The translations under genes were made by a program, and so were the position numbers. The notes beneath the pieces are model-generated. The model was not told the origin of the DNA, did not search any database, and saw nothing but the letters and a program-made list of their open reading frames with translations. From the NCBI GenBank assembly GCA_009779115.1, contig WREX01000001.1, positions 10,878 through 74,877 on the forward strand: DNA of 64,000 nt, read 5' to 3'. Below, piece after piece: positions 9,376 to 56,159 of the stretch (within the stretch, counting starts at the first letter, position 1; every line of letters begins with the position of its first letter). Origin of the DNA: Propionibacteriaceae bacterium (GTDB taxonomy: Bacteria > Actinomycetota > Actinomycetes > Propionibacteriales > Propionibacteriaceae).

Positions 9376-9672
9376 ATGGCAAATGTGAATGTAACCTACG
9401 AAGAGATGACCGCAGCGGCTAACCGGCTGATGACTGGTGAACAAGATATCACTACACAGCTCAACGAGTTGAAGTCGTACATTGGGAACCTGGTCTCGAG
9501 CGGATTCGTGACCGATCAGGCATCGGTCAAGTTCAACGAGACGTACACCAACTTCACCACGAGTGCCACCCAGACCATCGGCGCTCTCGACGGACTGGCC
9601 CAGTACCTCACGCAGGCTGCCCAGGCCATGCAAGAAACTGACTCGCAACTGGCAGCCGGTCTCGGGCAATGA
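9376..9672 (+). CDS. esxA: WXG100/EsxA-like small helical-hairpin protein (type VII secretion substrate/component)
   Basis: 98 aa starting at ATG 9376, 7 nt after AAGGAG. The N-terminus reads MANVNVTYEEMTAAANRL. The C-terminal tail AQAMQETDSQLAAGLGQ parallels the S. aureus EsxA tail. The gene lies in an operon with an FtsK/SpoIIIE ATPase. The central W-x-G is replaced by SGF. Confidence 0.8.
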   Translation: MANVNVTYEEMTAAANRLMTGEQDITTQLNELKSYIGNLVSSGFVTDQASVKFNETYTNFTTSATQTIGALDGLAQYLTQAAQAMQETDSQLAAGLGQ

Positions 9673-10268: not shown

Positions 10269-11146
10269 CCCGCAGATTCTCCTTCGTCCTGCCCGATCGG
10301 TGGTGGCGCATACCGCTCATCAATAAACAGGCGCGAACAGCTAACATTGACCATGTCGTCGATAGTCAGTTCCCCAACATCGATGAGGCCGCCGCCCTCA
10401 GGCACGACATCAAGACTGAACTCCAGAAGGTGGCTGACCAAGCAGTCCGGGCTGGGGGAATTGTCATGGCCATCTACCTCCAGCACATCGAGGAAGTGCC
10501 AATCACAGCGACCATGACCTGCTACGACATTTCCGGGAAGCTCGCGCTGCCCGAGCAGATCGACCCGGCGAAGCTTCTTGCCATGTATGTGGGAGACAAG
10601 GAACTGGAGGACAGTCTGCCGGATCTAGAGGAGATGCTGTTCCCTGATCGTATTCGTACTGAATCAGATGAGGCGCCGGATTCGGCAGAGGAGACAGGCG
10701 GTACTTCCGCATCGGGAGATCGGACAGGCGAAACCCCTCCAGCGGAGGACCAGCAAAGCTACATCACCGAAGCTGGACCCCAGGAAGCTGACACCCCGAG
10801 CCTGGCAGCGCAGACACCTCCCCAAGGCGGTGACCACACCGACGAATCGGAGGAACCCCGGCCAGTATGGACGAAGGTCACTTCCTTCAATGTGCTCGCG
10901 TACCGGCAGGAGAAAATCACCCCGGGGACGGACTATTTCGGACCCGGCGCTCCGCTGATCCCCCAGCTGCAGGTCACCTACGCACAAATTGTCAAGAACT
11001 TTGGGCTCGTGCAGACAGTCTTCTCGACACCGGTGATCCCGGCAAGGGATGCCTGGGTGCCCATGTTCGACGCGATGATCGCCGCATTCCGGACCGGTGC
11101 GCCCGATGCGGACACCACAGAAACAACCGATTCCAAGGAGGTGTGA
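10265..11146 (+). CDS. hypothetical acidic protein with disordered central insert, T7SS-locus associated
   Basis: Start taken at ATG 10265, which overlaps the upstream stop (ATGA). 293 aa beginning MTRRFSFVLPDRWWRIPL. A central stretch of about 80 aa is rich in E/D/P/T. Confidence 0.6.
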   Translation: MTRRFSFVLPDRWWRIPLINKQARTANIDHVVDSQFPNIDEAAALRHDIKTELQKVADQAVRAGGIVMAIYLQHIEEVPITATMTCYDISGKLALPEQIDPAKLLAMYVGDKELEDSLPDLEEMLFPDRIRTESDEAPDSAEETGGTSASGDRTGETPPAEDQQSYITEAGPQEADTPSLAAQTPPQGGDHTDESEEPRPVWTKVTSFNVLAYRQEKITPGTDYFGPGAPLIPQLQVTYAQIVKNFGLVQTVFSTPVIPARDAWVPMFDAMIAAFRTGAPDADTTETTDSKEV

Positions 11147-11147
11147 C

Positions 11148-12146
11148 ATGCAGTATCCCCAACTACGTATCGACGCTGAGATATTGTTCAATGCAGGAAA
11201 CTCATTGAAAAGTGTTTCGGCTGATTTCGGCGAAGCCGGCCAACAGGCCAAGGATGTCGCAGGGCTAGTTGGGCATGAATCGGTGGCACATGCGATCCGA
11301 CAGTTCGCCGACACCTGGGATGACCGCAGGGCAAACATGAAGAAAGCCATCGATTCCCTCGCCGATGCCACAACCCAGATCGGCCAGGCCGTTGTGGACC
11401 TTGATCATCAACTCGGTGATTGTCTGGAGCCTCCTGGCACGGGAGTCCCCGGGCAAATCCCCAAGGAGCCGTATCCAGGACCCAACCCTCCGCCTGGTGG
11501 TCCGTACCCGCCTGGTGGTCCGTACCCGCCTGCTGGACCGTACCCGCCTGCTGGACCGTACCCGCCAGCTGGACCGTACCCGCCTGCTGGACCGTACCCA
11601 CCTGGTGGACCGTACCCACCCAGCGGACCCAACCCGCCTGCTGGACCGTACCCGCCTGCTGGACCGTACCCACCTGGTGGACCGTACCCGCCTGGTGGAC
11701 CGTACCCGCCGGCTGGACCGTACCCGCCTGGTGGACCGTACCCACCCAGCGGACCCAACCCGCCGGCTGGACCGTACCCGCCTGCTGGACCGTACCCACC
11801 CAGCGGACCCAACCCGCCTGCTGGACCGTACCCACCTGCTGGACCGTACCCGCCTGCTGGACCGTACCCGCCAGCTGGACCGTACCCGCCAGCTGGACCG
11901 TACCCGCCAGCTGGACCGTACCCGCCAGCTGGACCGTACCCGCCAGCTGGACCGTACCCACCTGCTGGACCGTACCCACCCAGCGGACCCAACCCGCCAG
12001 TAGGACCATACCCACCTGCCCCCGGACCTGGACCTACTCCTTCTCCGCTGCCCTCTCCACACCCGAACCCACCGGCACCGCACCCGAACCCGTATCCGCA
12101 TCCGTACCCAACGCCTCCACCGGACTCGACTAGACCACCCAGGTGA
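11148..12146 (+). CDS. helical N-terminal domain protein with a roughly 230-aa proline-rich tail, about 175 aa of it (GPYPPA)n hexapeptide repeats
   Basis: ATG 11148 lies 8 nt after AAGGAGG and 1 nt after the upstream stop. The N-terminal 100 aa (LRIDAEILFNAGNSLKSVSADF...WDDRRANMKKAIDSLADATTQIG) look like small helical T7SS-associated proteins. About 29 hexapeptide repeats follow, then a PxP-rich end. Confidence 0.7.
   Translation: MQYPQLRIDAEILFNAGNSLKSVSADFGEAGQQAKDVAGLVGHESVAHAIRQFADTWDDRRANMKKAIDSLADATTQIGQAVVDLDHQLGDCLEPPGTGVPGQIPKEPYPGPNPPPGGPYPPGGPYPPAGPYPPAGPYPPAGPYPPAGPYPPGGPYPPSGPNPPAGPYPPAGPYPPGGPYPPGGPYPPAGPYPPGGPYPPSGPNPPAGPYPPAGPYPPSGPNPPAGPYPPAGPYPPAGPYPPAGPYPPAGPYPPAGPYPPAGPYPPAGPYPPAGPYPPSGPNPPVGPYPPAPGPGPTPSPLPSPHPNPPAPHPNPYPHPYPTPPPDSTRPPR
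11478..12020 (+). repeat. 18-bp tandem repeat array (about 29-30 units), consensus GGACCGTACCCGCCTGCT, encoding GPYPP[AGS]
   Basis: Direct reading shows units in the pattern G A A A A G S/N-A A G G A G S/N-A A S/N-A A(x8) S/N-V A. The variant pair GPYPPS-GPNPPA recurs 4 times. All six frames are open across the array. Confidence 0.95.
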
Positions 12147-12328: not shown

Positions 12329-13720
12329 ATGACACACAGAACCAATTGGAAAGTCTTGCGTACAACCGACCCCATGCCCGGAGATGTTCCCGGCATCCGT
12401 GACGCCGCTGATCACTATCAACAGATCACCACAGCCCTGACGACGACCCGTGATGATCTGGACACTGTGATGACTCGCGGATACAGCACAGACATGATCT
12501 CGGAGGCGGTGGACGCGATTCGTCAAACGGCCCAGAAGGTCAGAGACGCGGTGGATCAAGTTAGTGGACGCTACTGTGTTGTAGCGGGAGAATTGCACAG
12601 TTTCGCTACTTCCTTGGATGCGACCCAAACCCAGGCTGACTGGGCCGAAGGAGACGCTCAAGCCGCTACTCAGGCAGTCAAAGAGGCCCAGCAGAATGAG
12701 GCTATCTACAACGACCAGATCAACAAGCTCAAACTACAGATCAAGACCCAACAGCACGATGACCCGACGCAGTCCGACCCCACTACTCTTCAGCGGCTCC
12801 AGGATAAATTGGCTCAAGCTCAGCGACAACTCAGAGAGGTCGTACACGACATTTCTGATGCCCAAGGACGCATCGAAACAGCCTCCAACGACCTAGATAC
12901 CGCACTCGCAACATGGAACACGGCTGCAGAGCAAGTATCCGACACAATCCTGAGTCAACTCCAGTGCGACGGCCTGAATGACACCTGGTGGCTGAACTGG
13001 GGCCAAGACCTCTTCGGGTGGGCAATAGACCTCGCTGATTGGTTTGTCGACTCCATGGCCGAAATCTTGGATGGGATCTCCAAGATGATCGAAGGCTTGA
13101 TGGGCATGCTGGATGCGCTGGAAACGGGAGACCGGGATAAGTTCACGGATGCTTTCTTGGGCATGATGGACGGGTTGTCACTCTTGGCTGGCGCCCTTTC
13201 TAGCCTCCTGGGTGCCATAGCAACTGTTCTGAGTTTTATCCCGGGTTTGCAGGAGGCCGCTTTAGGCTTTAGCCTGGCGTCGGTCATCGTAGCAGGGGTC
13301 CAAGTCCTGGCCGACGTCGTCCTCGCCGCCAATCACAGGAAATCGTGGTCGACTGTGGGAGAGGAAGCGGTTTTAGCATTGGCGGGTGCTGCCCTGCGCG
13401 GACTCTCAGGACCGACCTTCGAAGGTGCCCTGCGTTCGGTTCTCCCCGCAAACGTGGTCAAGACCTTGTTTGCAGATGATACATTTGGCGCTGTCCTGGA
13501 CACATTTGGTACTGGCCTCACGGAATATCAGATTATCAACAATCAAGAATTGAACTACTCCATGCCGTCATTGAACCCCTCCTACGACTGGAGCAATATG
13601 CCTGAAAGTGAACAAGTGGGCATGGCCACCATGTTTGTCGCCGACGCCTATGTGCAATCGGAGGCGACTAGCTGGCGTAACTGGGGCAACACACTCGACA
13701 ACATCAAGAATGACTTCTAA
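12329..13720 (+). CDS. putative T7SS-secreted protein: N-terminal helical targeting domain plus C-terminal small-xxx-small membrane hairpin
   Basis: 463 aa. The N-terminus TTDPMPGDVPGIRDAADHYQQI resembles the actinobacterial putative T7SS secretion-signal domain. Residues 100-215 are coiled-coil-like. Residues 281-335, GLSLLAGALSSLLGAIATVLSFIPGLQEAALGFSLASVIVAGVQVLADVVLAA, form a glycine-zipper-like hydrophobic hairpin. Confidence 0.6.
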   Translation: MTHRTNWKVLRTTDPMPGDVPGIRDAADHYQQITTALTTTRDDLDTVMTRGYSTDMISEAVDAIRQTAQKVRDAVDQVSGRYCVVAGELHSFATSLDATQTQADWAEGDAQAATQAVKEAQQNEAIYNDQINKLKLQIKTQQHDDPTQSDPTTLQRLQDKLAQAQRQLREVVHDISDAQGRIETASNDLDTALATWNTAAEQVSDTILSQLQCDGLNDTWWLNWGQDLFGWAIDLADWFVDSMAEILDGISKMIEGLMGMLDALETGDRDKFTDAFLGMMDGLSLLAGALSSLLGAIATVLSFIPGLQEAALGFSLASVIVAGVQVLADVVLAANHRKSWSTVGEEAVLALAGAALRGLSGPTFEGALRSVLPANVVKTLFADDTFGAVLDTFGTGLTEYQIINNQELNYSMPSLNPSYDWSNMPESEQVGMATMFVADAYVQSEATSWRNWGNTLDNIKNDF

Positions 13721-13738: not shown

Positions 13739-16700
13739 GTGAAGATTCGGCTCACTCTTGCGACGGATGCGGGGCCGCGTGACATTACGGTGACTGCGGA
13801 TGCCACGGCCACCATCGGGGATGTTGCCTCCACTATCCGGCGCAGTCTCGCTTTTCAGGCGGGGCTGGCGCCGGGGGGTAACCCGGGGCCTCGGATGACT
13901 CTTCAGACGCTGTCGGCCACGGGGTTGGTCGAGCGGACGCTCTTGTCGCAGTCCAGTTTGTCGGACGCTGGTCTGTTGTCGGGGGCGACGATCCAGTTGG
14001 TGGTCTTAGACGCCATGCCCTCCCGGATTGACGACCATGCTGGTGCGGCGGCGTACCTGCATATCCTGTCGGGGCCGCAGACGGGACAGGCACTGCCGCT
14101 GCGCTCAGGACCCAACACCATCGGGCGCAGTCCGGGGGCCGACATCACCATCGACGATCCGTTCGTGTCCAGCATCCATGCCCGGATTGTCGTTTCGGAC
14201 CACATCGAGATCATCGACATGAACTCTGCCAATGGGATCGCCGTGGGGTCGGGTCTCGTGGAGCGGTCCAACCTCGAAGCCCATGACACAGTCACCCTGG
14301 GCGACACGAGCTTCCGGGTGGAACGCAACCCATCCGCGGGAGCTTCCTCGTCATGGACGACTTCGATCGAATTCAACCGTTCGCCTCAGATCTGGCCGGC
14401 TTACGCTGGTCGGACCTTCAAGCTTCCCCAGCCTGCCGGACCCACCAAGCCCGGGAAATTCCCCCTGGTCGCCATGGTTGCCCCGCTGATCATGGGAAGC
14501 GTGATGTACCTGTTCACTCACAACATCATGAGCGTCATTTTCGTGGCTCTCAGTCCGCTCATCGCGATCGGGACATGGCTGGACCGCCGGGTCACCGACC
14601 GCCGGGAGAAGAAACAACAGACCCAGCGGTTCCGGGATGAGATCGAGACCGCGTCAACTCAGATCCATCAGGCCCTGGCTGAAGAACAACAGGCCCGTTG
14701 TCAGGAAATCCCTTCCCTGCAAACCTTAGTTGCTTCGGTCTCACAACTGGCCCCCACCCTGTGGCACCGCCGTCCCGATCAGGAGAATTTCCTGACACTC
14801 ATGACCGGGTACGGCACTGCCGCCTCTCGATCAACCGTCGACTTGCCGCAACGTGGCGAAGGCTCCTCACAACTGTGGCAACTCGCCACCGACCTCCAGG
14901 CCCACTCTCAAACAGTCGACAACGTCCCCATCCTCGTACCACTGCGCACAACCGGAAACCTGGGGATCGCAGGGACTCCGGCCTGGCTCGACTCCGTGGC
15001 CTGCGCCATCGTCGCCCAACTGGCCTGTCTGCATTCTCCCGCTGAAGTCGTCATCACTGGAATCGCTTCCGTGGCCTCCTGCCGGCGGTGGAACTGGTTG
15101 ATGTGGCTGCCTCACGTCGGATCGACCCACTCGCCGATCGAAGGGCCCCACCTCGCCACCTCCCCCGCCGAAGTCTCCTCCCTGGTCTCCCGGCTGGAGG
15201 AGTTGTCCGCCAAACGCCGCGAACTGCGACGCGACGCCGCGACGGCGTTGCCAGCCGTCGTCCTCGTGGTGGAGAACGACGCCCCCATCGAGCGGGGGCG
15301 TCTGGTGTCTTTGGCAGAGAACGGCCCTGACACCGGGATACACCTGATCTGGATGACCCCCGAACAGCACGACCTGCCAGCAGCCTGCCATGCGTTCTTC
15401 GTGGAAAACCACAGTGAGCACACCATGCACATCGGTTTTACCCAGGACAACACCTGGACCCAGATCACCTCCTGCGAGACTCTGACACCGGCCGACGCCT
15501 TGGTTGTGGCCCGCAGGATGTCCCCGATCCACGACGCCGGGGCACCGATGATCGACCAGTCCGATCTGCCGCGCGCCATCTCGTACCTCGCCCTGGCAGG
15601 CCCTGAACTCGCGGATGACCCGTCCTTCACTGTGACCCGGTGGAGAGAGAACGGTTCCATCCTCGGCCCGGGGGAACTCCCGCCTTCCTCGGGGAGCAAC
15701 CTGCGGGGCCTGATCGGGCAAGGCGCCCACGGGGAGTTCGTCCTCGACCTGCGTATCCACGGGCCACACGCCCTGGTCGGTGGCACGACCGGCGCGGGCA
15801 AGTCGGAATTCCTCCAGGCCTGGGTCCTGGGGATGGCCGCCGCCAACAGCCCCAAACGAATCACCTTCTTGTTCGTCGATTACAAGGGCGGGGCGGCCTT
15901 CGCGGACTGCATCAAGCTGCCGCATTGCGTGGGTCTGGTCACCGACCTCAGCGCCCATCTGGTTCGCCGGGCTCTGACTTCACTGAAAGCCGAGTTGCGA
16001 TACAGGGAGCACTTGCTGAACGAGAAGAAAGCCAAAGACCTCGTCTCGCTGGAAGCCACCGGCGATCCGGATTGCCCACCCTCGCTCATCATCATCGTGG
16101 ACGAGTTCGCCGCGCTGGCCAAGGAGATCCCCGAGTTCGTCGACGGTGTCGTCGATGTCGCCCAGAGGGGGCGGTCGCTGGGCATGCACCTGATCATGGC
16201 CACACAGCGCCCGGCCGGGGTCATCCGGGACAACTTGCGTGCCAACACCAATTTGAGGATCGCCTTGCGCATGGCGGATGAGACCGATTCCACAGATGTC
16301 ATCGGTACTCCGCTGGCCTCCAGCTTCGACTCGCGTACCCCTGGCCGGGGAGCAGTACGAACAGGCCCGGGCCGTATCGCACTGTTCCAGTCCGGCTATG
16401 CGGGTGGCCAGACGACCAGCGAACCGGAACCGGCACGCATCGACGTGGAGACTCTGTGTTTCGGGGCCGGGGCGCCATGGGAGATCCCGAGCGACCGAGC
16501 ACCAAAACCTCAGCAATCGGGCACCAAGGACATCAGCCGGATCGTCTCCAGTATCTGCCAGGCCGCTGCGATCACCGCCATACCCGAGCCACGTAAACCC
16601 TGGTTGCCCGACCTCGACTCGGCCTATGACCTCGCGACTCTGTTCGCGGCCAGCACCCAGCGAGCGCGCGATACCTCGGTCACGGCTCTCGCTCTGGGGG

Positions 16701-18160
16701 TCATGGACGATCCGGCCAACCAGGCGCAACATCCCGTCTTCTGGAATCCCGATGAGGGCAATCTGGCCATTTATGGGGCTTCGGGCTCGGGAAAGTCCTC
16801 CACCTTGCGGACGATCGCGGTGTCAGCCAGCGTGTTGGCCCAGGTCGCGCGGGTGGATGTTTATGGCTTTGACGCCGGTTCGTCGGGTCTGGCCATGCTG
16901 GAACCGCTTCCTCATGTCGGCGCCATCATCGGAGCTGACGACCACGAGCGGGTCAACCGCCTGCTGCGCCGGTTGATCCAGACCCTCGACGAACGCGCGG
17001 ACAAGTTCGCTGCCGTTCGAGCAGGCAGTCTGGCCGACTACCGGCGCATCAGCGGTGACCAGACCACCGCCAGGATCCTCCTGCTGATCGACGGATTCGC
17101 CGCGTTCAGGGACATGTACGAGAACACCGTCGGAACGGCCCAACCGTACTCGATGCTAGCCAGGGTCTTGTCGGAAGGGCGTTCGGTGGGAATCCACGTG
17201 GCCCTGACCGCTGAAAGACCGAACGCCATCAACACCGCCCTGGCCGCCAGCATCCAGAAGAGACTGGTCCTCAAGCAGGCGGAGGAAGCGACGTACGTGC
17301 TGCTGAACATCGCCAAGGACATCCTCGACCCATCCAGTCCCCCCGGACGCGGGGTGTTCGCCGAAGACACCAACGAGATCCAGATAGCGGTCCTCAACGC
17401 GACGTCCGACACCGAGAAGCAAGCGGCGTCGATCGACTCGCTGGCCAAGTCGATGACACAGGTCGGCATCGTGGCGGCGCCGGGAGTGGAACGGTTGCCG
17501 AGCCTGATTCCGATCGGCCAGGTCCCGACATCTGTGGGCGGGCAACCAGTGTTGGGGGTCCGGGAAGACACGTTGGAACCGATCGGTTTCAGGGCCGAGG
17601 GAACCTTCGTCGTCGCGGGCATGCCAGGTACAGGGCGCACCACTGCCCTGCGCTATTTGTGCCATGCCCTGCACCGTTGGGATCCGCGGGTCCCCAAGTA
17701 CTACATCGGTCCGAGCCGGTCCGCCCTCCACGCCGAGACCATCTGGGCGGATCACGCGAGAACCGAGGAGGAGATCGCGGAGTTGTGCACCGACATTCTT
17801 CCTTCCCTGGAACGTCCAGCAGCGGGCATACCTGGTGCGGTGCTCGTCTTGGAGGCCTTGACCGAATTCATTGGATCCTCGGTGGAGAATCCCATCGTCG
17901 GTCTCATCCGGGCGGCCCGCCGCAATGGGCATCTGGTCATCGGCGAAACCGAGACTGCTGGTTGGGGATCGGCGTGGCCACTGATCTCTGAGATCAGAAA
18001 CGGACGCCGGGGCATCGTGCTTCAGCCCGACCAGGCGGACGGTGACGGGCTGTTCCGGGTGGCTTTCCCTCGCGTCAAGCGGGCCGACTTCCCCGTGGGA
18101 CGCGGAATCAGCGTGGATGCAGGCAAGTCATGTACGGTCCAGATTCCGCTGCCGGACTGA
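13739..18160 (+). CDS. essC: EssC/YukB-like type VII secretion ATPase: Ubl(beta-grasp)-FHA-2TM-3x FtsK/SpoIIIE
   Basis: GTG start 13739, 8 nt after GGGGAG. Residues 1-90 end in the YukD/EccD-like signature LSDAGLLSGATIQLVV. FHA spans residues 105-195. TM helices are FPLVAMVAPLIMGSVMYLF and IMSVIFVALSPLIAIGTWL. There are three P-loops: GTTGAGKSE, GASGSGKSS and GMPGTGRTT. Confidence 0.9.
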   Translation: MKIRLTLATDAGPRDITVTADATATIGDVASTIRRSLAFQAGLAPGGNPGPRMTLQTLSATGLVERTLLSQSSLSDAGLLSGATIQLVVLDAMPSRIDDHAGAAAYLHILSGPQTGQALPLRSGPNTIGRSPGADITIDDPFVSSIHARIVVSDHIEIIDMNSANGIAVGSGLVERSNLEAHDTVTLGDTSFRVERNPSAGASSSWTTSIEFNRSPQIWPAYAGRTFKLPQPAGPTKPGKFPLVAMVAPLIMGSVMYLFTHNIMSVIFVALSPLIAIGTWLDRRVTDRREKKQQTQRFRDEIETASTQIHQALAEEQQARCQEIPSLQTLVASVSQLAPTLWHRRPDQENFLTLMTGYGTAASRSTVDLPQRGEGSSQLWQLATDLQAHSQTVDNVPILVPLRTTGNLGIAGTPAWLDSVACAIVAQLACLHSPAEVVITGIASVASCRRWNWLMWLPHVGSTHSPIEGPHLATSPAEVSSLVSRLEELSAKRRELRRDAATALPAVVLVVENDAPIERGRLVSLAENGPDTGIHLIWMTPEQHDLPAACHAFFVENHSEHTMHIGFTQDNTWTQITSCETLTPADALVVARRMSPIHDAGAPMIDQSDLPRAISYLALAGPELADDPSFTVTRWRENGSILGPGELPPSSGSNLRGLIGQGAHGEFVLDLRIHGPHALVGGTTGAGKSEFLQAWVLGMAAANSPKRITFLFVDYKGGAAFADCIKLPHCVGLVTDLSAHLVRRALTSLKAELRYREHLLNEKKAKDLVSLEATGDPDCPPSLIIIVDEFAALAKEIPEFVDGVVDVAQRGRSLGMHLIMATQRPAGVIRDNLRANTNLRIALRMADETDSTDVIGTPLASSFDSRTPGRGAVRTGPGRIALFQSGYAGGQTTSEPEPARIDVETLCFGAGAPWEIPSDRAPKPQQSGTKDISRIVSSICQAAAITAIPEPRKPWLPDLDSAYDLATLFAASTQRARDTSVTALALGVMDDPANQAQHPVFWNPDEGNLAIYGASGSGKSSTLRTIAVSASVLAQVARVDVYGFDAGSSGLAMLEPLPHVGAIIGADDHERVNRLLRRLIQTLDERADKFAAVRAGSLADYRRISGDQTTARILLLIDGFAAFRDMYENTVGTAQPYSMLARVLSEGRSVGIHVALTAERPNAINTALAASIQKRLVLKQAEEATYVLLNIAKDILDPSSPPGRGVFAEDTNEIQIAVLNATSDTEKQAASIDSLAKSMTQVGIVAAPGVERLPSLIPIGQVPTSVGGQPVLGVREDTLEPIGFRAEGTFVVAGMPGTGRTTALRYLCHALHRWDPRVPKYYIGPSRSALHAETIWADHARTEEEIAELCTDILPSLERPAAGIPGAVLVLEALTEFIGSSVENPIVGLIRAARRNGHLVIGETETAGWGSAWPLISEIRNGRRGIVLQPDQADGDGLFRVAFPRVKRADFPVGRGISVDAGKSCTVQIPLPD
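14051..14324 (+). other. FHA domain of the EssC-like ATPase, with a canonical phosphothreonine-contact set
   Basis: YLHILSGPQTGQALPLRSGPNTIGRSPGADITIDDPFVSSIHARIVV...NSANGIAV...TLGDTSFRV. The G-R, S-x-x-H and N-G positions are all retained. Confidence 0.8.
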
Positions 18161-18316: not shown

Positions 18317-19036
18317 TTACTCGTCGTCATCGTGAACGGCGCCAGGGTCGTCCAGCAGGGTGAGGTCTTCCGCGGTCACGAAACCGGTCGACACCGCCCA
18401 CTCGACCAGGCGCGAGCGGCGGCCCGAGGCGTGTTGGCGCACCCCTCCGCGCATCCCGTCCACACCGAGGTTGTCCAATTTCATACAGATATTGTCGATT
18501 TTCTTTTCGTAGCGTTTGACGGACCAGCCGATCCGGTCGGCGGCGTCGGCATTCGAGGGGACATGGATCATCCCGAAGCCTTCACGCCTGAGCGCGGGCT
18601 CAGCCAGGGCCACGACTGCCAGCCGCTGGGCCATGGTCCAGCCCACACCGTCGATCGTGGTCCCCGATTCCGCCGTGGCAGTCCCTATCCCCTCCTGCCA
18701 CAAGGGGATTTCATTCACCAGATGGATTTGGTACGTGCATGGACCGGCGGTGAACACCACGTCGACAGAACCGAACACCAGGGGCAGCCGGGTGGAGGGG
18801 CCCAGCCATGCCTGCAGGCTCGTCTTGCGGTCATAGACGGTGGCCGCCGTCGTGCCGCCGATGTTGACCAGCCACCACAGGTCGTACTCGTACACCAACC
18901 GCAGGAAACGACGATGCAGGTACGGGTTGGCGTCGAGAACCATGTCTGCCTCGCGGCCGATGTCGAACACCTGGCCCGGGCTCACCACGTGCGTCCGTCC
19001 CTCGAACTCGATACGAACAGTCGACTCCTCTGCCAT
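18317..19036 (-). CDS. FHA-like N-terminal domain / C-terminal helix-turn-helix putative regulator
   Basis: Start at ATG 19036 after GGGGAGGA (ORF track extends to 19276). The N-terminus reads VRIEFEGRTHVVSPGQVFDIGREADMVL...LHRRFLRL...NIGG. The C-terminus ADRIGWSVKRYEKKIDNICMKLDNLG...RRSRLVEWAVSTGFVTAEDL resembles a LuxR/GerE-type HTH. Confidence 0.6.
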   Translation of the reverse strand: MAEESTVRIEFEGRTHVVSPGQVFDIGREADMVLDANPYLHRRFLRLVYEYDLWWLVNIGGTTAATVYDRKTSLQAWLGPSTRLPLVFGSVDVVFTAGPCTYQIHLVNEIPLWQEGIGTATAESGTTIDGVGWTMAQRLAVVALAEPALRREGFGMIHVPSNADAADRIGWSVKRYEKKIDNICMKLDNLGVDGMRGGVRQHASGRRSRLVEWAVSTGFVTAEDLTLLDDPGAVHDDDE

Positions 19037-19061
19037 GCGTCCTCCCCTTCGTGTATGGATA

Positions 19062-20762
19062 TCAGGCGACAGCACAACGCCTCGTTGTGTCCGATGGTAC
19101 CCCGTGACGGACGACTTGCACGTCAAGACAAACGTAACTGTCCTGCTCAGGCCAAGCCACCGTGACCGTCGTCTGATCCGTGATTTTAGCGGTGACATCG
19201 GTCGACCCGTCGACGGTGTAACGGTATTGATCACCCTCCTGGGGGTCCGGATTGACCCAGGTGAAGACTGCATCACCCGAAGAATCGTGGGTGCCGGTCA
19301 GATCGGTGACTGCTTGGGGGATGGTGGAATTCACGATGGGATTGTGGGGTGTGGCGGAGGTGGTGGTGGCATCGGGAGGAGGGGGCACGTCAGGAGCGCC
19401 GTGGAGAACCACGACGACCACGGTCACGGCAACAGCGATGATGACGACCGCGAGGGCGACCACACCCCATCGGCGTTTCCCGGGTGACTTAGGCGACCGT
19501 GGCTGAGCAGTCACCGATTCCGCAGGCTCAGGGTGGTCCAGAGTCACCGGGCGTACTTGGGTGGGATCGAGCAACCCGCCGAAGTCCACAGCGGTCGTCG
19601 GATAGGCCGGGTGGGCCATCTTGGAAGTGTTTTTCCTGCCAGGAACCTCGGAAATGGGCAATGAGCCCATACTTGCTAGTGGCAGGTCCTTGACTGGGGC
19701 ATGAGCCACGTCGGTGGCCTGTGCCACCCCCGGGAGGTGGGCCGGGTCGGGTTCCAAGGTGGGATCGATGGTCTGCTCAATGTGGGGGTCGATCACAGTC
19801 AATGGGCGCAGACTCGTCCCCGCTGTCTCGTCATCGCCGATCCGGTCATCGCCGTCAGAATCCTCCAGGATGTCCATCTGGGTCGCCGGCAGGTGGAGTT
19901 CGGCTTCGACCTCGCGCAGGGCCATGCCGAAGGCCTTCATGGAGGGATACCGGGCCTGCGGCGACTTGGCCATGGCAGTGGACAAGACCTGATCCAAGGA
20001 GGCGGGAGCGTCAACCCGGCCGAGCGGGCGGTAGGGAGCATTGCGGATCCTGTCGATCATCACATGTTGCCGATTGTCTCCACCGGGAATCTCGAAGGGG
20101 GGCCTGCCCGTCAGCAAAGCGTACATGGTGGCTGCCAGGCTCCAGATGTCCGATTGGCGGGTCGGACGAGGATTCTTGTCGAAGGACTCGGGCGGGCTCC
20201 ACGGGATCGACATCCCCTGCGCGCCTCCCCTGGAAGCCTCGACATCCGTCATGGCGATACCGAAGTCGCCGAGGACCGGGCGGGAGAAGCGGTCCATCAG
20301 AATATTGGCTGGCTTGACATCCCGGTGCAAAATCCCTTGTGAATCAGTCCCCAGGCCCGGACTCGTGTAGCGATGGGCCGACTCCAAGGCTCCAGCCAAC
20401 TGGATGCCTATCTTGAGGACATTGGCCAAGGACCACCCAGTCTTGCGCAGTCCCTGGGACAGGGCGGCACCCGGGTAGTACTCCATCACCAAGTACGGGC
20501 GCCCGTCCATCGCGACCCCGGAGGAAAAGACTGTCACGATGTTCTGGTGTCCGGACAACCCGGCCATGGCGTCGGCCTCTTTGTTGAGCCGGGCGGCTGC
20601 TTGGCTTCCCGCCATGTCGGCGTGCAAGACCTTCACGGCGACCTGGCGGTGCGGAGTGTCTTGGGAATACAAGTACACGTCGGCGAACCCACCGTGTCCG
20701 AGATCGCGCAGGTAGGAGAAACCGGGAATCTGCGGTGGGGCCTCACGCCGGGTCGAACTCAT
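19062..20762 (-). CDS. Hanks-type Ser/Thr protein kinase, single TM, FN3-like extracellular domain
   Basis: Kinase motifs are LGHGGFADVY, VAVKVL, HRDVKPANIL, DFGIA, SPPE and DIWSLA. A Pro-rich linker follows, then the TM helix WGVVALAVVIIAVAVTVVVVVL. The ectodomain is about 110 aa (AVTDLTGT..AVFTWVNPDP..GDQYRY). Confidence 0.92.
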   Translation of the reverse strand: MSSTRREAPPQIPGFSYLRDLGHGGFADVYLYSQDTPHRQVAVKVLHADMAGSQAAARLNKEADAMAGLSGHQNIVTVFSSGVAMDGRPYLVMEYYPGAALSQGLRKTGWSLANVLKIGIQLAGALESAHRYTSPGLGTDSQGILHRDVKPANILMDRFSRPVLGDFGIAMTDVEASRGGAQGMSIPWSPPESFDKNPRPTRQSDIWSLAATMYALLTGRPPFEIPGGDNRQHVMIDRIRNAPYRPLGRVDAPASLDQVLSTAMAKSPQARYPSMKAFGMALREVEAELHLPATQMDILEDSDGDDRIGDDETAGTSLRPLTVIDPHIEQTIDPTLEPDPAHLPGVAQATDVAHAPVKDLPLASMGSLPISEVPGRKNTSKMAHPAYPTTAVDFGGLLDPTQVRPVTLDHPEPAESVTAQPRSPKSPGKRRWGVVALAVVIIAVAVTVVVVVLHGAPDVPPPPDATTTSATPHNPIVNSTIPQAVTDLTGTHDSSGDAVFTWVNPDPQEGDQYRYTVDGSTDVTAKITDQTTVTVAWPEQDSYVCLDVQVVRHGVPSDTTRRCAVA

Positions 20763-22282
20763 GCCAACTCCTCGATCGTGACCATCAGGTCGTGGCTGAG
20801 GAAGTAGACGTCCTTTTCTTGGGCGATCTCCTGCTGCCCGTCAGTCAGACGGCGGTCGGGTTGCCCGACCCGGCGCAGAATGGTCCCGTTGCGGCCCAGA
20901 CTGGTCACCAGGACACTCCAATCCTCCAGGTCGACCCTCAGGTGGGTCGCCGACACATGGGGATCCTCGACGGTGATCAGGTTGGGGATGTCCAGGTTGG
21001 AGAACCGGGTCGCTTCGGGGCGGCGGCCGATGACGAAGGGATGGTCGATGGGCCTCACATCTCCCCCCGGCAGTTTCAGCCTTCCCAGGATCGGTCGCGG
21101 CACTTGAGTGGCATCGACATCCAGCGGGGAGTCACAGAACCGGCAGGTGACTCGCCGGGTCGAGTTGGCGCTGTGACACCGTGGGCAGATCCGCGCCGAG
21201 ACCATGGGGCCCGCCGGGGACGGAACTGGGCTGGCGGCCACCTGGTCGCCGACCCAGGTGTGGGTGGTCATTCCGTCGTGATCAGTGGAGGGACCTTCGC
21301 CAAAACCCGGTGCCGACATCACCGTCATGCCATCGTGGTCATCCTCGTCCTCGTACGGTTGGTTCGTCCTCGCCAGCCCTGGGTCGTACGCCGGTCCGCC
21401 AGGTGGCGGGGACATGGTCAGTTGAGTCTCGGCGGCGCTTTGAACAGGAGCAGTGGAAGCGGGATTCCCCAGGTCAGGATTCCCAGGGTCGAGATTCTCC
21501 GCTGCCTGATTCGCTGCTGCTGGGCCCTCGAAGAAGGACCGGTACAACGTGGTGTAGTGCAGGTCTTGCTCGTCACGGGATTGGACAGGGGCAGGTGGGG
21601 TACCCGACGGCGGAGTCACTGGTTCACCCTGCGGCGAGCCTGGGTGGGGAGGAGCAGCGGGACCATGGGCCGGGGGCGGGACAGCCGGTACTGGCGACAC
21701 CGGGGCCGCATGACCGGCTGGATTGGACTGCTCACCCTGGGCAGCGACCGCCGCAGGTGAAGGGGTGTCTGGCACATTGAGGGCCGCCAGTCCAGTGCCT
21801 GGGGTACTGGTCACAACACTGTGGACAGGGGCGGAGTCTGACCAGTCCCCTCCCCCCGGGAGCATGTCGATGCAAGAGACTGGCACGATGCCGTCGTTGA
21901 GCACCCAGGAGGGCAGGCCGCCGTCTTCGTCGGCAGCCACACTGAGCTGACTGGGGGCAAGAATCCTGTCTTCTTTCCAGGTCAGGACGTCAGCGCCGCT
22001 GATCAATACTGGTCCCCCAGTGGTCATCGCGCGTACTGACAATGGACCGCGTACTGCGATGTGGATGCCGCCGGATTCGGGCACGGCGATGGCGAAGGCG
22101 GGCAAGGCCGTCAGGTCCGCCGCCGCGTCGCCGACCATCCGCTGGAGGAGCTGGGCGAAACCGCTTCCACTGCGCAGGGCTGCCCATACCGACGTCACCT
22201 TCTCGCCGGTTGAGTCCGGTGCGAGGATGACACAGCCAGATCCCGACACCAGGCCGTACCATTGTCCCGTCGCGTACCTCAT
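20759..22282 (-). CDS. FHA domain protein with zinc ribbon and long Pro-rich linker
   Basis: Start at ATG 22282 overlaps the PP2C stop (ATGA); the ORF track extends to 22534. Zinc ribbon: CPRCHSANSTRRVTCRFC. C-terminal FHA: VIGRRPEA...SATHLRV...GRNGTIL. Confidence 0.8.
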   Translation of the reverse strand: MRYATGQWYGLVSGSGCVILAPDSTGEKVTSVWAALRSGSGFAQLLQRMVGDAAADLTALPAFAIAVPESGGIHIAVRGPLSVRAMTTGGPVLISGADVLTWKEDRILAPSQLSVAADEDGGLPSWVLNDGIVPVSCIDMLPGGGDWSDSAPVHSVVTSTPGTGLAALNVPDTPSPAAVAAQGEQSNPAGHAAPVSPVPAVPPPAHGPAAPPHPGSPQGEPVTPPSGTPPAPVQSRDEQDLHYTTLYRSFFEGPAAANQAAENLDPGNPDLGNPASTAPVQSAAETQLTMSPPPGGPAYDPGLARTNQPYEDEDDHDGMTVMSAPGFGEGPSTDHDGMTTHTWVGDQVAASPVPSPAGPMVSARICPRCHSANSTRRVTCRFCDSPLDVDATQVPRPILGRLKLPGGDVRPIDHPFVIGRRPEATRFSNLDIPNLITVEDPHVSATHLRVDLEDWSVLVTSLGRNGTILRRVGQPDRRLTDGQQEIAQEKDVYFLSHDLMVTIEELA

Positions 22283-23091
22283 GATTGGTCTTTCTCGCCG
22301 GACTGGCCGCCGTCTGCCAGGCCCATCGTGTCGTCGACAGTGGCCCCGCCCGGATCGCCCGCGAAATCCTCCACGTCCACGATAACGACCGACACGTTGT
22401 CGCGCCCGCCCGCGGCCAGGGCGGCGCTGACCAGTTGGGTGACAACCTCGTGGGCCGGGAGCGGTTGGGTGACGATGCGGGCGATCTCGGTCTCGGTCAG
22501 CTCTGTGGTCAGCCCGTCCGAACAGATCATCCACCGCCCAGGACCCATGACCGGAATGAGCCAGTAGTCGGGCCGCTCGACGGTGCGCGCTCCGAGGACC
22601 CGCGTGATGACATTGCGCCGGGAGTACGTCCGGGCTGAAACGGCGTCCAAACGTCCCGCCTCGATCATCTCCTGGGCTTCGGAGTGGTCCACGGACACCT
22701 GGTTGACCGTGTCACCGACGACACGGTAGGTGCGCGAATCCCCCAGATTGATCACCAGCCAGTACGGCCAGCCGTCTTGTCGCACCAGCACGATGCCGCT
22801 GACCGTCGTACCGGCCGCCCTCCACGTGTGCGAAGCCTCCAACGAGTCGATGCTCCAGCGGGCCCGGGTGAGGGCGTCACGGACATCTTCGACGCTGGGG
22901 TCGGCGCCCAGTTTGCTCATCTCATCGATCACGATGGCACTGGCACGGTCACCGGCGTCGTGGCCGCCCATGCCGTCGGCCACGATGAACACAGGGCGTT
23001 CGGCCAAGACGGCGTCCTCGTTGAAGGCACGGCGGTGGCCGATGTCGGTCGCGGAGGCGACACTGAGTTTCACATCATCCAGGACAGTCAT
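22279..23091 (-). CDS. PP2C-family Ser/Thr protein phosphatase
   Basis: ATDIGHRRAFNEDA, VADGMGGHDAG, a GDSR block and a C-terminal DNVSVV. These match PPM/PP2C motifs. Confidence 0.92.
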   Translation of the reverse strand: MTVLDDVKLSVASATDIGHRRAFNEDAVLAERPVFIVADGMGGHDAGDRASAIVIDEMSKLGADPSVEDVRDALTRARWSIDSLEASHTWRAAGTTVSGIVLVRQDGWPYWLVINLGDSRTYRVVGDTVNQVSVDHSEAQEMIEAGRLDAVSARTYSRRNVITRVLGARTVERPDYWLIPVMGPGRWMICSDGLTTELTETEIARIVTQPLPAHEVVTQLVSAALAAGGRDNVSVVIVDVEDFAGDPGGATVDDTMGLADGGQSGEKDQS

Positions 23092-23804
23092 GACTCTCGG
23101 GCCCTCTCAACATGGAATCGTCTGCGTCCCAGGATCAGGGTGTCACCGATCGACAGTCGGACCGGTTCTCCGGGAACCAGGTGGAGGGGCAGGCTCCCCA
23201 TCCGTACAAGATCCGTACCATTGGTGGATCCTCGGTCCTTGAGCCATAACCCCTGGTCATCAAGGCCATACTCGGCGTGGGTCTTCGACAAGGACCGCTC
23301 CGGGTCGTCCACTGCCGTACACACCACGGACGGGTCTGGCGACTCCGGGTTGCGTCCGACCAGGCCGTGGCTGCTCACGTGGATGCGTTGGCCGGTGTCG
23401 AACACCAAATCGATGCTGAGGCTGTCCACGGCAGGGGTGGCCATCGGGGGCCCCGCCACGGCTGGCCGGTCCATCACTGGTCCCGGACGAGGCCCGGTCC
23501 ATCCGCCCGGGGCCAAGACCGTGGAGGCCACGGCGGCCACCGCCGCAGTGGGAGGTGGGCAGACAGCGGTCAGCTGAGTTTGTCCTGTGCGCACGGCAGG
23601 CTCGGGTCGCGGTGTCGACGCCGGTTGAGCCGCCTGGGAAGGGTTGCCATCAGCCTGCCCGTGGTCGAAGAACTCCGGGGTCCTGGTCCCCGGGACATCC
23701 CAGATCAGGAAACCAGCTGGATTCGAGGGGACGGACCGCCCGCAAGCAGGGCAGGCGACGGCTGACTCGGGGATCTGAGCCCCACACTGAGGACATGATC
23801 GCAT
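23088..23804 (-). CDS. FHA domain protein with N-terminal zinc ribbon
   Basis: Start at ATG 23804, 2 nt below the upstream stop; the ORF track extends to 23942. Zinc ribbon: CPQCGAQIPESAVACPACG. A Pro-rich linker follows. FHA: LVGRNPES...SKTHAEY...STNGTDL. Confidence 0.8.
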   Translation of the reverse strand: MRSCPQCGAQIPESAVACPACGRSVPSNPAGFLIWDVPGTRTPEFFDHGQADGNPSQAAQPASTPRPEPAVRTGQTQLTAVCPPPTAAVAAVASTVLAPGGWTGPRPGPVMDRPAVAGPPMATPAVDSLSIDLVFDTGQRIHVSSHGLVGRNPESPDPSVVCTAVDDPERSLSKTHAEYGLDDQGLWLKDRGSTNGTDLVRMGSLPLHLVPGEPVRLSIGDTLILGRRRFHVERARES

Positions 23805-23806
23805 TC

Positions 23807-51485: not shown

Positions 51486-51663
51486 CAACACGACACCCGT
51501 GACACCAGTCAGTCTGAGATACCACAATCAGCTAGCTGCCTCAACGAATCACACGTAGTTGGTCTGGGTTCCAATGGCCTGGATCACAGCGACCGGCCAG
51601 TCGTACGAAACGACATGACCGAGTTCTGTCCTCGGGGCCACGCACCCGTACTGACAAGCAATG

Positions 51664-54640: not shown

Positions 54641-54717
54641 AATTGCCGGTCAGCAAACGGCATGCACACTCAGGTTGTCCCCGATTGCGTCCCTGACCGG
54701 GATGATACGATGACCGA

Positions 54718-55746: not shown

Positions 55747-55786
55747 GCACACTCCTGGACGCCTGAACTGCACCCGAGATCCGAGA

Positions 55787-56155: not shown

Positions 56156-56159
56156 GGCT

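What the first reader, a model, noticed from the sequence alone, without database searches (positions are those of the whole stretch)
13739..14324. EssC-like ATPase carries a fused ubiquitin-like domain plus an FHA domain with intact pThr-binding residues
Seen: residues 1-90 look like a beta-grasp domain ending in LSDAGLLSGATIQLVV. This is the same C-terminal signature as YukD and the EccD N-terminal Ubl. Residues 105-195 form an FHA domain retaining G-R (IGRS), S-x-x-H (SSIH) and N-G (ANG). Established: in T7SSb, YukD is a separate protein and EssC has two FHA-like domains. As I recall, those domains are reported to lack a canonical phosphopeptide-binding site. Inference: this protein fuses the Ubl module to the motor and may bind phosphothreonine. 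That fits the kinase and phosphatase encoded next door.
Basis: partly seen in the sequence, partly recalled or inferred. Interest (0 to 1): 0.65.

Follow-up and report, generated by a model that had tools for sequence, protein, structure and literature searches.

The report
Secretion ATPase with built-in ubiquitin-like domain
The motor ATPase of this actinobacterial type VII (Esx) secretion system starts with a ubiquitin-fold domain followed by a phosphothreonine-reader (FHA) domain; the FHA and its link to the neighbouring kinase genes are already published, but I found no report of the fused ubiquitin-like domain.

Summary
ORF 13739-18160 (+, 1473 aa) is an EccC/EssC-type T7SS ATPase with two TM helices and three P-loop domains.

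- **Residues 1-90:** these fold with high confidence as a beta-grasp. The best structural matches are the EccD ubiquitin-like domains of ESX-3/ESX-5, and ubiquitin.
- **Residues 105-197:** this is a canonical FHA domain (Pfam 47 bits, TM 0.83-0.91 to GarA, FhaA and OdhI). G129-R130, S144-x-x-H147 and N165-G166 are all intact.
- **Distribution:** the Ubl-FHA-ATPase layout is conserved in at least 216 50%-identity clusters from Propionibacteriales, Actinomycetales (including Schaalia) and Micrococcales. All three FHA motifs are intact in 93% of them.
- **Neighbourhood:** the adjacent operon (MoxR, DUF58, transglutaminase, FHA proteins, PP2C, kinase) is conserved. It matches the Esr sensing pathway described in a 2026 preprint, which also notes FHA-EccC fusions.
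- **Prior work:** a 2024 survey had already noted intact pThr motifs on actinobacterial T7SSd ATPases.
- **What seems unreported:** the cis-fused Ubl. No Pfam model detects it, and this genome's own database gene call cuts it in half.

This is a new variant of a known kind. Phosphothreonine binding and Ubl docking remain untested.

The parts
13739..18160 (+). EccC/EssC-type T7SS ATPase, 1473 aa: Ubl, FHA, 2 TM helices, DUF region, three P-loop FtsK domains
   Evidence: Pfam FtsK_SpoIIIE 1.8e-51. NCBIfam EssC 553 bits, EccCb 342 bits and EccCa 331 bits, all below their equivalog cutoffs. PDB sequence matches: T. curvata EccC 4nh0 2.6e-69, YukB 9qks 1.5e-58, EccC5 4e-46.
13739..14008 (+). Ubiquitin-like beta-grasp domain (residues 1-90), no C-terminal Gly-Gly
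   Evidence: AF2 pLDDT ~90-97 with beta-grasp topology. Foldseek top hits are EccD5/EccD3 Ubl domains and ubiquitin. Conserved family-wide: T19, A30 and G82 are near-invariant.
14009..14050 (+). Low-confidence, variable linker (residues 91-104)
   Evidence: pLDDT 58-61 in this block. Length varies among homologues.
14051..14329 (+). FHA domain (residues 105-197). Motifs: GR 14123-14128, SxxH 14168-14179, NG 14231-14236
   Evidence: Pfam FHA 47 bits. Foldseek GarA, FhaA and OdhI at E 2e-9, TMt 0.83-0.91, rmsd 1.2-1.6. All three motifs are intact in 177 of 191 family N-termini.
14372..14383 (+). Near-invariant F-N-R-S motif in the linker between the FHA domain and the membrane
   Evidence: F212, N213 and S215 are conserved at 90% or more, and R214 is invariant. 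It is retained even in the FHA-less variants.
14459..14581 (+). Two transmembrane helices (residues 241-259 and 263-281)
   Evidence: Hydropathy scan.
15782..17641 (+). Three Walker A motifs: GTTGAGKS 15782-15805, GASGSGKS 16775-16798, GMPGTGRT 17618-17641
   Evidence: Motif search; Pfam P-loop hits.
9376..9672 (+). WXG100/EsxA-like protein (98 aa, counted from the internal Met)
   Evidence: Pfam WXG100 2e-16. Homologues sit next to the ATPase in L001, L002 and L005-L007.
11097..12146 (+). Helical Esx-partner-like N-terminus followed by a (GPYPPA)n repeat tail
   Evidence: N-terminus is homologous to small proteins next to WXG100 in Actinomycetaceae loci. 18-bp repeat, 29 copies.
12329..13720 (+). 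LXG-like candidate T7SS substrate with two C-terminal hydrophobic helices
   Evidence: Weak T7SS_signal hit, 22.3 bits against a 27-bit cutoff. N-terminus is homologous to the N-terminus of a TNT-toxin protein in Buchananella felis. TM scan.
18317..19036 (-). Conserved 239-aa protein of unknown function, last gene of the Esr-like operon
   Evidence: 45% identical homologue lies immediately upstream of the ATPase in Herbiconiux flava. No Pfam hit.
19062..20762 (-). Membrane Ser/Thr protein kinase (one TM helix at residues 428-446, ~120-aa extracytoplasmic tail)
   Evidence: Pkinase 9.6e-33; TM scan.
20759..22282 (-). EsrG-like protein: N-terminal domain, Pro-rich disordered middle, zinc-ribbon-like CxxC pair, C-terminal FHA
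   Evidence: FHA 20.1 bits, just under the 20.7 cutoff. Sequence inspected.
22279..23091 (-). PP2C-family phosphatase
   Evidence: PP2C 8.4e-7, 29.4 bits against a 20.3-bit cutoff.
23088..23804 (-). Zinc-ribbon plus FHA protein
   Evidence: Zn_Ribbon_1 and FHA at 26.9 bits.
23807..28454 (-). TgpA-type transglutaminase, DUF58 protein and MoxR AAA+ ATPase
   Evidence: Pfam hits. Same genes next to the ATPase in Georgenia and Herbiconiux.
28511..34612 (-). 2033-aa Big_9/cadherin-like/fn3 repeat surface protein (EsrA/TsdI-like)
   Evidence: Pfam hits. 35% identical homologue in the Georgenia locus.

Best explanation
This is the motor ATPase of an actinobacterial Esx/T7SS, and its cytoplasmic N-terminus is a two-module adaptor.

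Shown:
- Residues 1-90 form a ubiquitin-fold domain.
- Residues 105-197 form an FHA domain with the canonical G-R, S-x-x-H and N-G residues.
- Two TM helices and three P-loop domains follow.
- The layout is conserved across Propionibacteriales, Actinomycetales and Micrococcales.
- No separate YukD-like gene is present in any of the loci examined.
- The ATPase is genomically tied to a MoxR/DUF58/transglutaminase/FHA/PP2C/kinase (Esr-type) operon.

Inferred:
- The Ubl is the cis-encoded counterpart of free YukD/EsaB (T7SSb) and of the EccD Ubl (T7SSa). It would dock on the ATPase's DUF/stalk region and hold the FHA domain in a fixed orientation, as YukD does for YukB.
- The FHA domain reads a phosphothreonine written by the neighbouring membrane kinase and erased by the PP2C. 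The target could be the EsrG-like protein, the kinase itself or another partner.
- Assembly, or substrate choice, of the secretion machine would then be switched post-translationally by the surface-sensing Esr pathway.
For: - Fold and motifs.
- Family conservation: 438 representative clusters match the Ubl profile at E<=1e-3 and 216 at E<=1e-10. The Ubl always starts at residue 1, and nearly all proteins of 140 aa or more continue into an FHA domain.
- FHA motifs: all three are intact in 177 of 191 N-termini.
- Ubl kept without FHA: two full-length variants (P0158, P0253) have the Ubl but no FHA. This suggests the Ubl is the more indispensable module.
- No stand-alone Ubl/YukD ORF in the window or in the six other genomes represented by loci L001-L007.
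- No T7SSa or T7SSb membrane components in the window.
- Conserved synteny with the kinase, PP2C, FHA, MoxR, DUF58 and transglutaminase genes.
- Literature: YukD sits between YukB's FHA domains and its DUF and is needed for assembly; the EccD Ubl binds the same DUF region of EccC (PMC12637312). Esr2 signalling controls secretion of a subset of Esx substrates post-translationally in Schaalia odontolytica, and FHA-EccC fusions are noted (PMC13622651). Schaalia georgiae EccC has the same Ubl-FHA N-terminus.
Against: - No sequence method places the Ubl in the YukD family. The window protein has no Pfam hit, and hhalign against a YukD profile gives P 0.004 and probability 8%.
- YukD itself (2bps) is not among the top 50 Foldseek hits, and TM scores are only 0.45-0.6.
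- In the window protein the residue after the conserved Ser is Ser, where 166 of 191 homologues have K or R. The residue before Asn is Ala, where FhaA has Thr. Phosphate binding could therefore be weaker.
- The locus encodes two other FHA proteins, which may be the true readers of the kinase.
- Ubl-DUF docking was not modelled, and no binding data exist.
Confidence: 0.6

Rival explanations
1. The FHA domain is a phospho-independent scaffold, like the EssC FHA domains that bind the EssB/YukC pseudokinase. On this reading the neighbouring kinase and phosphatase signal only through the separate FHA proteins (EsrG-like), not through the ATPase.
For: - T7SSb FHA domains work without pThr motifs (PMC11217815).
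- The window protein lacks the K/R after Ser144 and the Thr before Asn165.
- Two other FHA proteins are encoded in the operon.
- The preprint's model attributes the output to EsrG2.
- Family members with degenerate or missing FHA domains exist.
Against: - GR, SxxH and NG are all retained in 93% of family members across three orders. That is hard to explain without selection on the phosphate pocket.
- The fold superposes on proven pThr binders at rmsd 1.2-1.6 A.
Confidence: 0.22
2. The N-terminal beta-grasp is an unrelated adaptor, acquired independently, that merely shares the ubiquitin fold. It would not play the YukD/EccD-Ubl role, and might for instance bind the kinase or a substrate.
For: - Sequence similarity to YukD is not significant.
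- The sub-threshold Pfam hits scatter over several beta-grasp families: OTU1_UBXL, TmoB, YukD and Rad60-SLD.
- Foldseek scores for ubiquitin are as good as those for EccD.
Against: - The top Foldseek hit, and 8 of the top 33, are T7SS EccD Ubl domains.
- The hhalign and profile alignments put the C-terminal L-x-[DE]-x-G-[LI]-x-x-G-x-x-[VI] segment in register with YukD and ubiquitin.
- A Ubl is otherwise reported as a near-universal T7SS part, and none is encoded separately here (PMC11217815).
Confidence: 0.13
3. Translation starts at Met53, as in the database gene call, so no complete Ubl is made.
For: The collection's own copy of this protein (P0002, 1421 aa) starts at residue 53.
Against: - Residues 1-52 are conserved in ~110 homologues, most of which start with M[RK][IL]KL.
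- A GGGGAG ribosome-binding site precedes the GTG at 13739.
- A Met53 start would cut the confidently predicted beta-grasp in half.
Confidence: 0.03

Closest known systems
T7SSd ATPase TsdC (Olsenella, Bifidobacterium; Garrett, Higginson & Palmer 2024, PMC11217815)
   Same: [quoted passage not shown]
- The locus has WXG100, a single-TM Ser/Thr kinase and a very large Ig-repeat surface protein.
- There are no T7SSa or T7SSb membrane parts.
   Different: - TsdC is described and modelled with two FHA domains, and T7SSd is reported as the only subtype with no ubiquitin-like component.
- Here the first position is a beta-grasp Ubl, followed by a single FHA domain.
- The locus here also has PP2C, MoxR, DUF58 and a transglutaminase, which are not listed among the five T7SSd core components.
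Esx system linked to the Esr2 pathway of Schaalia odontolytica (Wang et al. 2026 preprint, PMC13622651)
   Same: - Same gene set: giant Ig-repeat sensor, MoxR, vWA/DUF58, transglutaminase, kinase, phosphatase and FHA output protein(s), next to eccC and esxA.
- Same taxonomic range (Actinomycetales, Propionibacteriales).
- The preprint notes FHA (EsrG)-EccC fusions. Schaalia georgiae EccC has the same Ubl-FHA N-terminus.
   Different: - The preprint does not mention a ubiquitin-like domain (0 occurrences of 'ubiquitin' or 'YukD').
- Its model attributes the FHA role to the separate EsrG2.
- The S. odontolytica EccC sequence itself was not available to me.
YukD/EsaB of T7SSb (B. subtilis YukB-YukC-YukD complex, PMC12637312; PDB 2bps, 9qks)
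   Same: - A ubiquitin fold without the Gly-Gly tail.
- Associated with an FHA-bearing T7SS ATPase.
- The C-terminal L-S-D-x-G-[LI]-x-x-G-x-x-[LI] segment aligns in register.
   Different: - YukD is a free 79-aa protein; here the Ubl is covalently N-terminal to the FHA domain.
- Sequence similarity is not significant.
- YukB has two FHA domains without pThr motifs, and its partner is the pseudokinase YukC, which is absent here.
EccD N-terminal Ubl domain of T7SSa (ESX-3/ESX-5 structures 6umm, 7b9f, 7np7)
   Same: - It is the best structural match to the window's residues 1-98.
- It is a Ubl fused in cis to a core T7SS component, and it contacts the EccC DUF.
   Different: - It is fused to the 11-12-TM EccD protein, not to the ATPase.
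- No EccD, EccB, EccE or MycP is encoded in the window.

Membership tests
EccC/EssC T7SS ATPase | Two TM helices, followed by a DUF region and three FtsK/SpoIIIE P-loop domains | tested here: met
   TM helices at residues 241-259 and 263-281. Three Walker A motifs. FtsK_SpoIIIE 1.8e-51. PDB EccC, YukB and EccC5 matches.
EccC/EssC T7SS ATPase | WXG100 gene in the same locus | tested here: met
   WXG100 at 9376-9672, E 2e-16. Also next to the homologues in L001, L002 and L005-L007.
T7SSb EssC equivalog (TIGR03928) / T7SSa EccCa, EccCb equivalogs | Score above the NCBIfam curated cutoff | tested here: not met
   EssC 553.5 against 778.4; EccCb 342.4 against 346.55; EccCa 331.3 against 509.15. The protein is a relative of both types, not an orthologue of either.
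FHA domain (PF00498) | Pfam gathering score and an 11-strand beta-sandwich fold | tested here: met
   43.5-47.1 bits against 20.7. Foldseek TMt 0.83-0.91 to GarA, FhaA and OdhI.
FHA domain (PF00498) | Conserved pThr-pocket residues G-R, S-x-x-H, N-G | tested here: met
   G129-R130, S144...H147 and N165-G166 are aligned with those of Rv0020c. They are invariant or near-invariant in the family. The secondary contacts S145 and A164 differ.
FHA domain (PF00498) | Binds phosphothreonine peptides | not testable with these tools
   Needs ITC or fluorescence polarisation with the purified domain.
YukD/EsaB family (PF08817) | Match to the family HMM or profile | tested here: not met
   No hit for the window protein even at E<=10. 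3 of 55 family N-termini hit YukD below threshold, best E 0.0058. hhalign against a YukD profile gives P 0.004 and probability 8%.
YukD/EsaB family (PF08817) | Ubiquitin-like beta-grasp fold lacking a C-terminal Gly-Gly, in a T7SS locus | tested here: met
   AF2 and Foldseek. The domain ends ...TIQLVVLDAMPS and continues into the FHA domain. T7SS context.
T7SSd (Garrett et al. 2024) | TsdA WXG100, TsdC with a pThr-competent FHA domain, TsdD single-TM kinase, TsdI giant Ig-like protein | tested here: met
   The signal peptide of the giant protein was not examined.
T7SSd (Garrett et al. 2024) | TsdC N-terminus consists of two FHA domains, and the system has no ubiquitin-like component | tested here: not met
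   The first domain here is a beta-grasp, not an FHA domain.
T7SSd (Garrett et al. 2024) | TsdH, a small single-TM protein | tested here: inconclusive
   No obvious candidate. The 239-aa conserved neighbour at 18317-19036 has no predicted TM helix.
Esr threat-sensing pathway (Wang et al. 2026) | MoxR, vWA/DUF58, transglutaminase, Ser/Thr kinase, phosphatase and an FHA output protein in one cluster next to esx genes | tested here: met
   All are found on the minus strand at 18317-28454. Adjacent genes abut or overlap by a few bases, apart from a 25-nt gap before the last gene. The cluster is conserved in Herbiconiux and Georgenia.
Esr threat-sensing pathway (Wang et al. 2026) | EsrA: secreted Ig-repeat filament with a terminal beta-propeller | tested here: inconclusive
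   The 2033-aa protein has Big_9, cadherin-like and fn3 repeats. Pfam reported no beta-propeller, and the structure was not modelled.
T7SSa / T7SSb core machinery | EccB/EccD/EccE/MycP, or EssA/EssB/EsaA, encoded nearby | tested here: not met
   None was found among the ORFs scanned across the 64-kb window. No second Ubl was found in the six-frame search.

The most novel reading that the evidence does not exclude
The Ubl-FHA unit could be a self-contained phospho-switch on the motor. On this reading, binding of a kinase-written phosphothreonine by the FHA domain repositions the covalently attached Ubl on the ATPase's DUF/stalk. That would gate hexamer assembly or the switch from EsxA/B to late (toxin-type) substrates. 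The ATPase's own N-terminus, rather than a separate EsrG protein, would then be the direct output of Esr signalling. It would also mean that every T7SS lineage needs a Ubl-DUF contact and has solved this in three ways: a free protein, fusion to EccD, or fusion to the ATPase.
Probability: 0.3. Interest if true: 0.7.

Novelty: new variant of a known kind. Interest (0 to 1): 0.5.

Why it matters
The ubiquitin-like component is reported as conserved in all but one described T7SS subtype (T7SSd), and its role as an assembly factor was only resolved structurally in 2025. This family shows a third configuration: the Ubl is fused to the motor itself, directly ahead of an FHA domain that looks competent for phosphothreonine. 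It sits in the actinobacterial Esx systems that a 2026 preprint links to a kinase-based threat sensor and to defence against Saccharibacteria.

That gives a concrete, mutable site (residues 1-200) for testing how phosphorylation is coupled to secretion. The same N-terminal layout is present in Schaalia georgiae, in the genus of the strain manipulated genetically in that preprint.

It also exposes an annotation gap. No Pfam model sees this domain, and at least one database gene call truncates it. HMM-based surveys for 'missing' Ubl components would therefore overlook it.

Tried and rejected
- **Word-index search with residues 1-100 alone:** it found one fragment only, so it was useless for a survey. 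I replaced it with a full-length search and an exhaustive profile search.
- **The search for related loci with the Ubl-FHA alignment:** The single-protein scan with P0041 returned only 4 loci, so there is no broad genome census.
- **Sequence-level link to YukD:** Pfam gave nothing for the window protein. hhalign against YukD alone gave E 0.06, and against a shallow YukD profile gave P 0.004. This is inconclusive. The YukD homologue search returned only close Bacillales relatives.
- **Degenerate first FHA, as in EssC/TsdC:** rejected, because of the 15-residue helix and the ubiquitin/EccD Foldseek hits.
- **Short hits as possible stand-alone Ubl proteins:** rejected. Lengths vary continuously, and several end in what look like sequencing-adapter or contig-end read-through tails. 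Most of those of 140 aa or more, and all but five of those of 200 aa or more, run on into the FHA domain.
- **P0164:** a false positive made of Calx-beta repeats. P0154 and P0258 look like frameshifted calls.
- **Source contig of the window:** not on record.
- **Preprint supplements:** not held, so I could not see its list of EsrG/EccC architectures.
- **The 239-aa neighbour:** no Pfam hit.
- **Ubl-FHA or Ubl-DUF contacts:** not assessed.
Full report
**1. The gene**

The finding lies at the start of ORF 13739-18160 (+, 1473 aa). The ORF has a GTG start preceded by GGGGAG six bases upstream. The protein is an EccC/EssC-type type VII secretion ATPase:
- Pfam FtsK_SpoIIIE at 1.8e-51.
- Three Walker A motifs, at residues 682, 1013 and 1294.
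- Two TM helices, at residues 241-281.
- PDB sequence matches to T. curvata EccC (2.6e-69), B. subtilis YukB (1.5e-58) and EccC5.

It scores below the NCBIfam equivalog cutoffs for EssC, EccCa and EccCb alike. It is therefore a relative of both described types and an orthologue of neither.

**2. The FHA domain (residues 105-197)**

- Pfam FHA scores 43.5-47.1 bits against a cutoff of 20.7.
- phmmer against PDB aligns it with CT664, Rv0020c/FhaA, GarA and OdhI. GR, S-x-x-H and N-G are in register.
- The AF2 model (pLDDT 89.8) superposes on the crystal structures of GarA, FhaA, OdhI and DgcB at TM 0.83-0.91 and rmsd 1.2-1.6 A.
- In an alignment of 55 diverse homologues, G129, R130, S144, H147, S163 and G166 are invariant and N165 is conserved at 90% or more.
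- Over 191 N-termini, all three motifs are intact in 177 (93%).
- Two secondary positions differ in the window protein. The residue after Ser144 is Ser, where 166 of 191 homologues have K or R. The residue before Asn165 is Ala, where FhaA has Thr.

**3. The N-terminal domain (residues 1-90)**

Sequence methods see almost nothing:
- No Pfam hit, even at E<=10.
- Scattered sub-threshold hits of family members, all to beta-grasp families: OTU1_UBXL (10 of 55), TmoB, YukD (3 of 55, best 0.0058) and Rad60-SLD.
- A profile hit to a redesigned ubiquitin at E 0.003.
- An insignificant hhalign match to a YukD profile (P 0.004). It covers only the C-terminal half, though in the expected register.

Structure prediction is clear:
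- The topology is strand 2-9, strand 12-19, helix 26-40, strand 53-58, strand 64-68, short helix 74-77, strand 84-89. pLDDT is above 90 for most residues.
- Foldseek against the PDB returns the EccD5 and EccD3 ubiquitin-like domains of mycobacterial ESX-5/ESX-3 as the top hit and as 8 of the top 33. They are interleaved with ubiquitin and other beta-grasp proteins, at E 1e-4 to 8e-4 and probability 1.00.

**4. The true start**

The database copy of this very protein (P0002) starts at Met53. Residues 1-52 are nonetheless conserved in ~110 full-length homologues, most of which begin M[RK][IL]KL. The GTG at 13739 is therefore the real start, and the existing gene call cuts the Ubl in half.

**5. 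How widespread the layout is**

- The full-length search returns 1460-1500-aa FHA+FtsK proteins. They come from Propionibacteriaceae (55-75% identity) and, at 44-52% identity, from Buchananella, Georgenia, Cellulomonas, Cellulosimicrobium, Oerskovia, Herbiconiux, Brachybacterium, Isoptericola and others. Nearly all cover 93-100% of the query; the few shorter alignments are partial or N-terminally truncated calls.
- An exhaustive profile search with the Ubl alone finds 438 representative clusters at E<=1e-3 and 216 at E<=1e-10. The domain begins at residue 1 in nearly all of the 150 hits listed.
- Nearly every hit long enough to tell continues into the FHA domain. The short hits are contig-end fragments.
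- Exceptions are informative. P0158 and P0253 are full-length ATPases with the Ubl but no FHA domain. P0169 and P0236 have degenerate FHA domains.
- Schaalia georgiae, Pauljensenia hongkongensis and Buchananella hordeovulneris carry the same Ubl-FHA N-terminus.

**6. Context**

- Upstream on the plus strand lie a WXG100 gene, a helical partner-like protein with a (GPYPPA)n tail, and an LXG-like candidate substrate.
- Convergent on the minus strand is an operon of nine closely packed genes: giant Big_9/cadherin/fn3 protein, MoxR, DUF58, TgpA transglutaminase, Zn-ribbon-FHA, PP2C, FHA protein, single-TM Ser/Thr kinase, and a conserved 239-aa protein.
- In Herbiconiux flava the last eight of these genes, in the same order, lie directly upstream of the ATPase on the same strand; the locus as fetched starts within MoxR, so the giant protein was not seen. 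In Georgenia wutianyii the giant protein, MoxR, DUF58 and TgpA abut the ATPase.
- No EccB/D/E, MycP, EssA/B or EsaA was found among the ORFs scanned across the 64-kb window. The rest is menaquinone, GlmM/GlmS, ABC transporter and cell-wall glycosyltransferase genes.
- A six-frame search finds no stand-alone YukD-like or Ubl-like ORF in the window or in the six other genomes represented by loci L001-L007.

**7. What is already known**

- Garrett, Higginson and Palmer (2024) defined T7SSd in Actinomycetota: WXG100, an ATPase TsdC, a kinase, a small TM protein and a giant Ig-like protein. They showed that the TsdC FHA keeps GR/SxxH/NG (100/98/90%), whereas EssC does not (0/0/21%). They proposed control by phosphorylation. 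They model TsdC with two FHA domains and state that T7SSd, alone among subtypes, has no ubiquitin-like protein.
- Wang et al. (2026 preprint) showed that the Esx system of Schaalia odontolytica defends against Saccharibacteria. They also showed that a MoxR/vWA/transglutaminase/kinase/phosphatase/FHA 'Esr' pathway is adjacent to esx genes in 40% of 3502 loci, and that Esr2 controls export of a subset of substrates post-translationally. They note that the FHA protein is sometimes fused to EccC. The preprint does not mention a Ubl.
- The 2025 YukB-YukC-YukD structure shows YukD clamped between the FHA domains and the DUF of the ATPase, where it is needed for assembly. The EccD Ubl binds the same DUF surface in T7SSa.
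- Iyer et al. (2006) recorded the actinobacterial YukD-like domain only as a fusion to the 12-TM EccD protein.
- Two further full-text searches found no description of a Ubl fused to the ATPase.

**8. Interpretation**

Shown: this is a conserved Ubl-FHA-TM-DUF-ATPase architecture in Esr-linked actinobacterial Esx systems.

Inferred: the Ubl is the cis-encoded equivalent of YukD and of the EccD Ubl. The FHA domain is the point where kinase/PP2C signalling meets the motor.

Rivals, none of which is excluded outright:
- A phospho-independent FHA scaffold.
- An unrelated beta-grasp adaptor.
- Signalling only through the separate FHA proteins.

**9. Verdict**

The FHA/kinase idea is already published. 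The fused Ubl appears unreported and is invisible to current domain models. This is a new variant of a known kind, of moderate interest, and it can be tested in Schaalia.

Noticed in passing
window 13739-13894: The public collection's copy of this protein (P0002, 1421 aa) starts at Met53. Conservation of residues 1-52 in homologues shows that the GTG at 13739 is the real start, so the existing gene call removes half of the Ubl domain.
   Followed up: yes
window 11097-12146 (+); repeat 11490-12019: This protein has a helical, Esx-partner-like N-terminus (homologous to ~119-aa proteins next to WXG100 in Actinomycetaceae loci). It is followed by ~29 copies of an 18-bp repeat encoding (GPYPPA)n.
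   Followed up: partly
window 12329-13720 (+): A 463-aa LXG-like protein with a weak T7SS_signal hit and two C-terminal hydrophobic helices. Its N-terminus is homologous to the N-terminus of a TNT-toxin protein, followed by Imm61 genes, in Buchananella felis (L001 16363-18419). This suggests a polymorphic Esx toxin with a membrane-active C-terminus here.
   Followed up: partly
window 9376-9672 (+): In the EsxA-like WXG100 protein, the stretch ...LVSSGFVTD... sits where I would expect the W-x-G turn, so there is no Trp. This position was judged by eye and was not aligned. The 2026 preprint mentions non-canonical (FXG) signals in this clade.
   Followed up: no
proteins P0158, P0253, P0169, P0236 (one search hits): Family variants exist. 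Two full-length ATPases have the Ubl joined directly to the NRSPR linker and TM helices, with no FHA domain. Two others have FHA domains that have lost GR and SxxH. The Ubl is retained when the FHA domain is lost.
   Followed up: partly
window 18317-19036 (-): A conserved 239-aa protein ends the kinase operon and faces the 3' end of the ATPase gene. Its homologue sits immediately upstream of the ATPase in Herbiconiux flava. Its N-terminus reads FHA-like (…FDIGREADMVLD…LHRRF…), but no Pfam model matches it.
   Followed up: partly
window 18317-28454 (-): The Esr-like genes are packed as one operon. Several adjacent genes abut or overlap by a few bases (e.g. 20759/20762, 22279/22282, 23088/23091, 26101, 27483/27486).
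   Followed up: partly
window 49518-62466: A block of cell-wall polysaccharide-type genes: DUF7657/DUF7654, GT1, WsaF-like, DUF2142 and GT2. The 2026 preprint reports that such genes are co-induced with Esx in Schaalia. Here I observed only the co-location.
   Followed up: no
window 4089-9029 (-): A run of genes immediately upstream of the Esx locus whose Pfam families (TPP enzyme, enolase-like MR/MLE, UbiA prenyltransferase, AMP-binding enzyme) suggest menaquinone biosynthesis (menD, menC, menA and menE-like). This marks the left edge of the secretion island.
   Followed up: no
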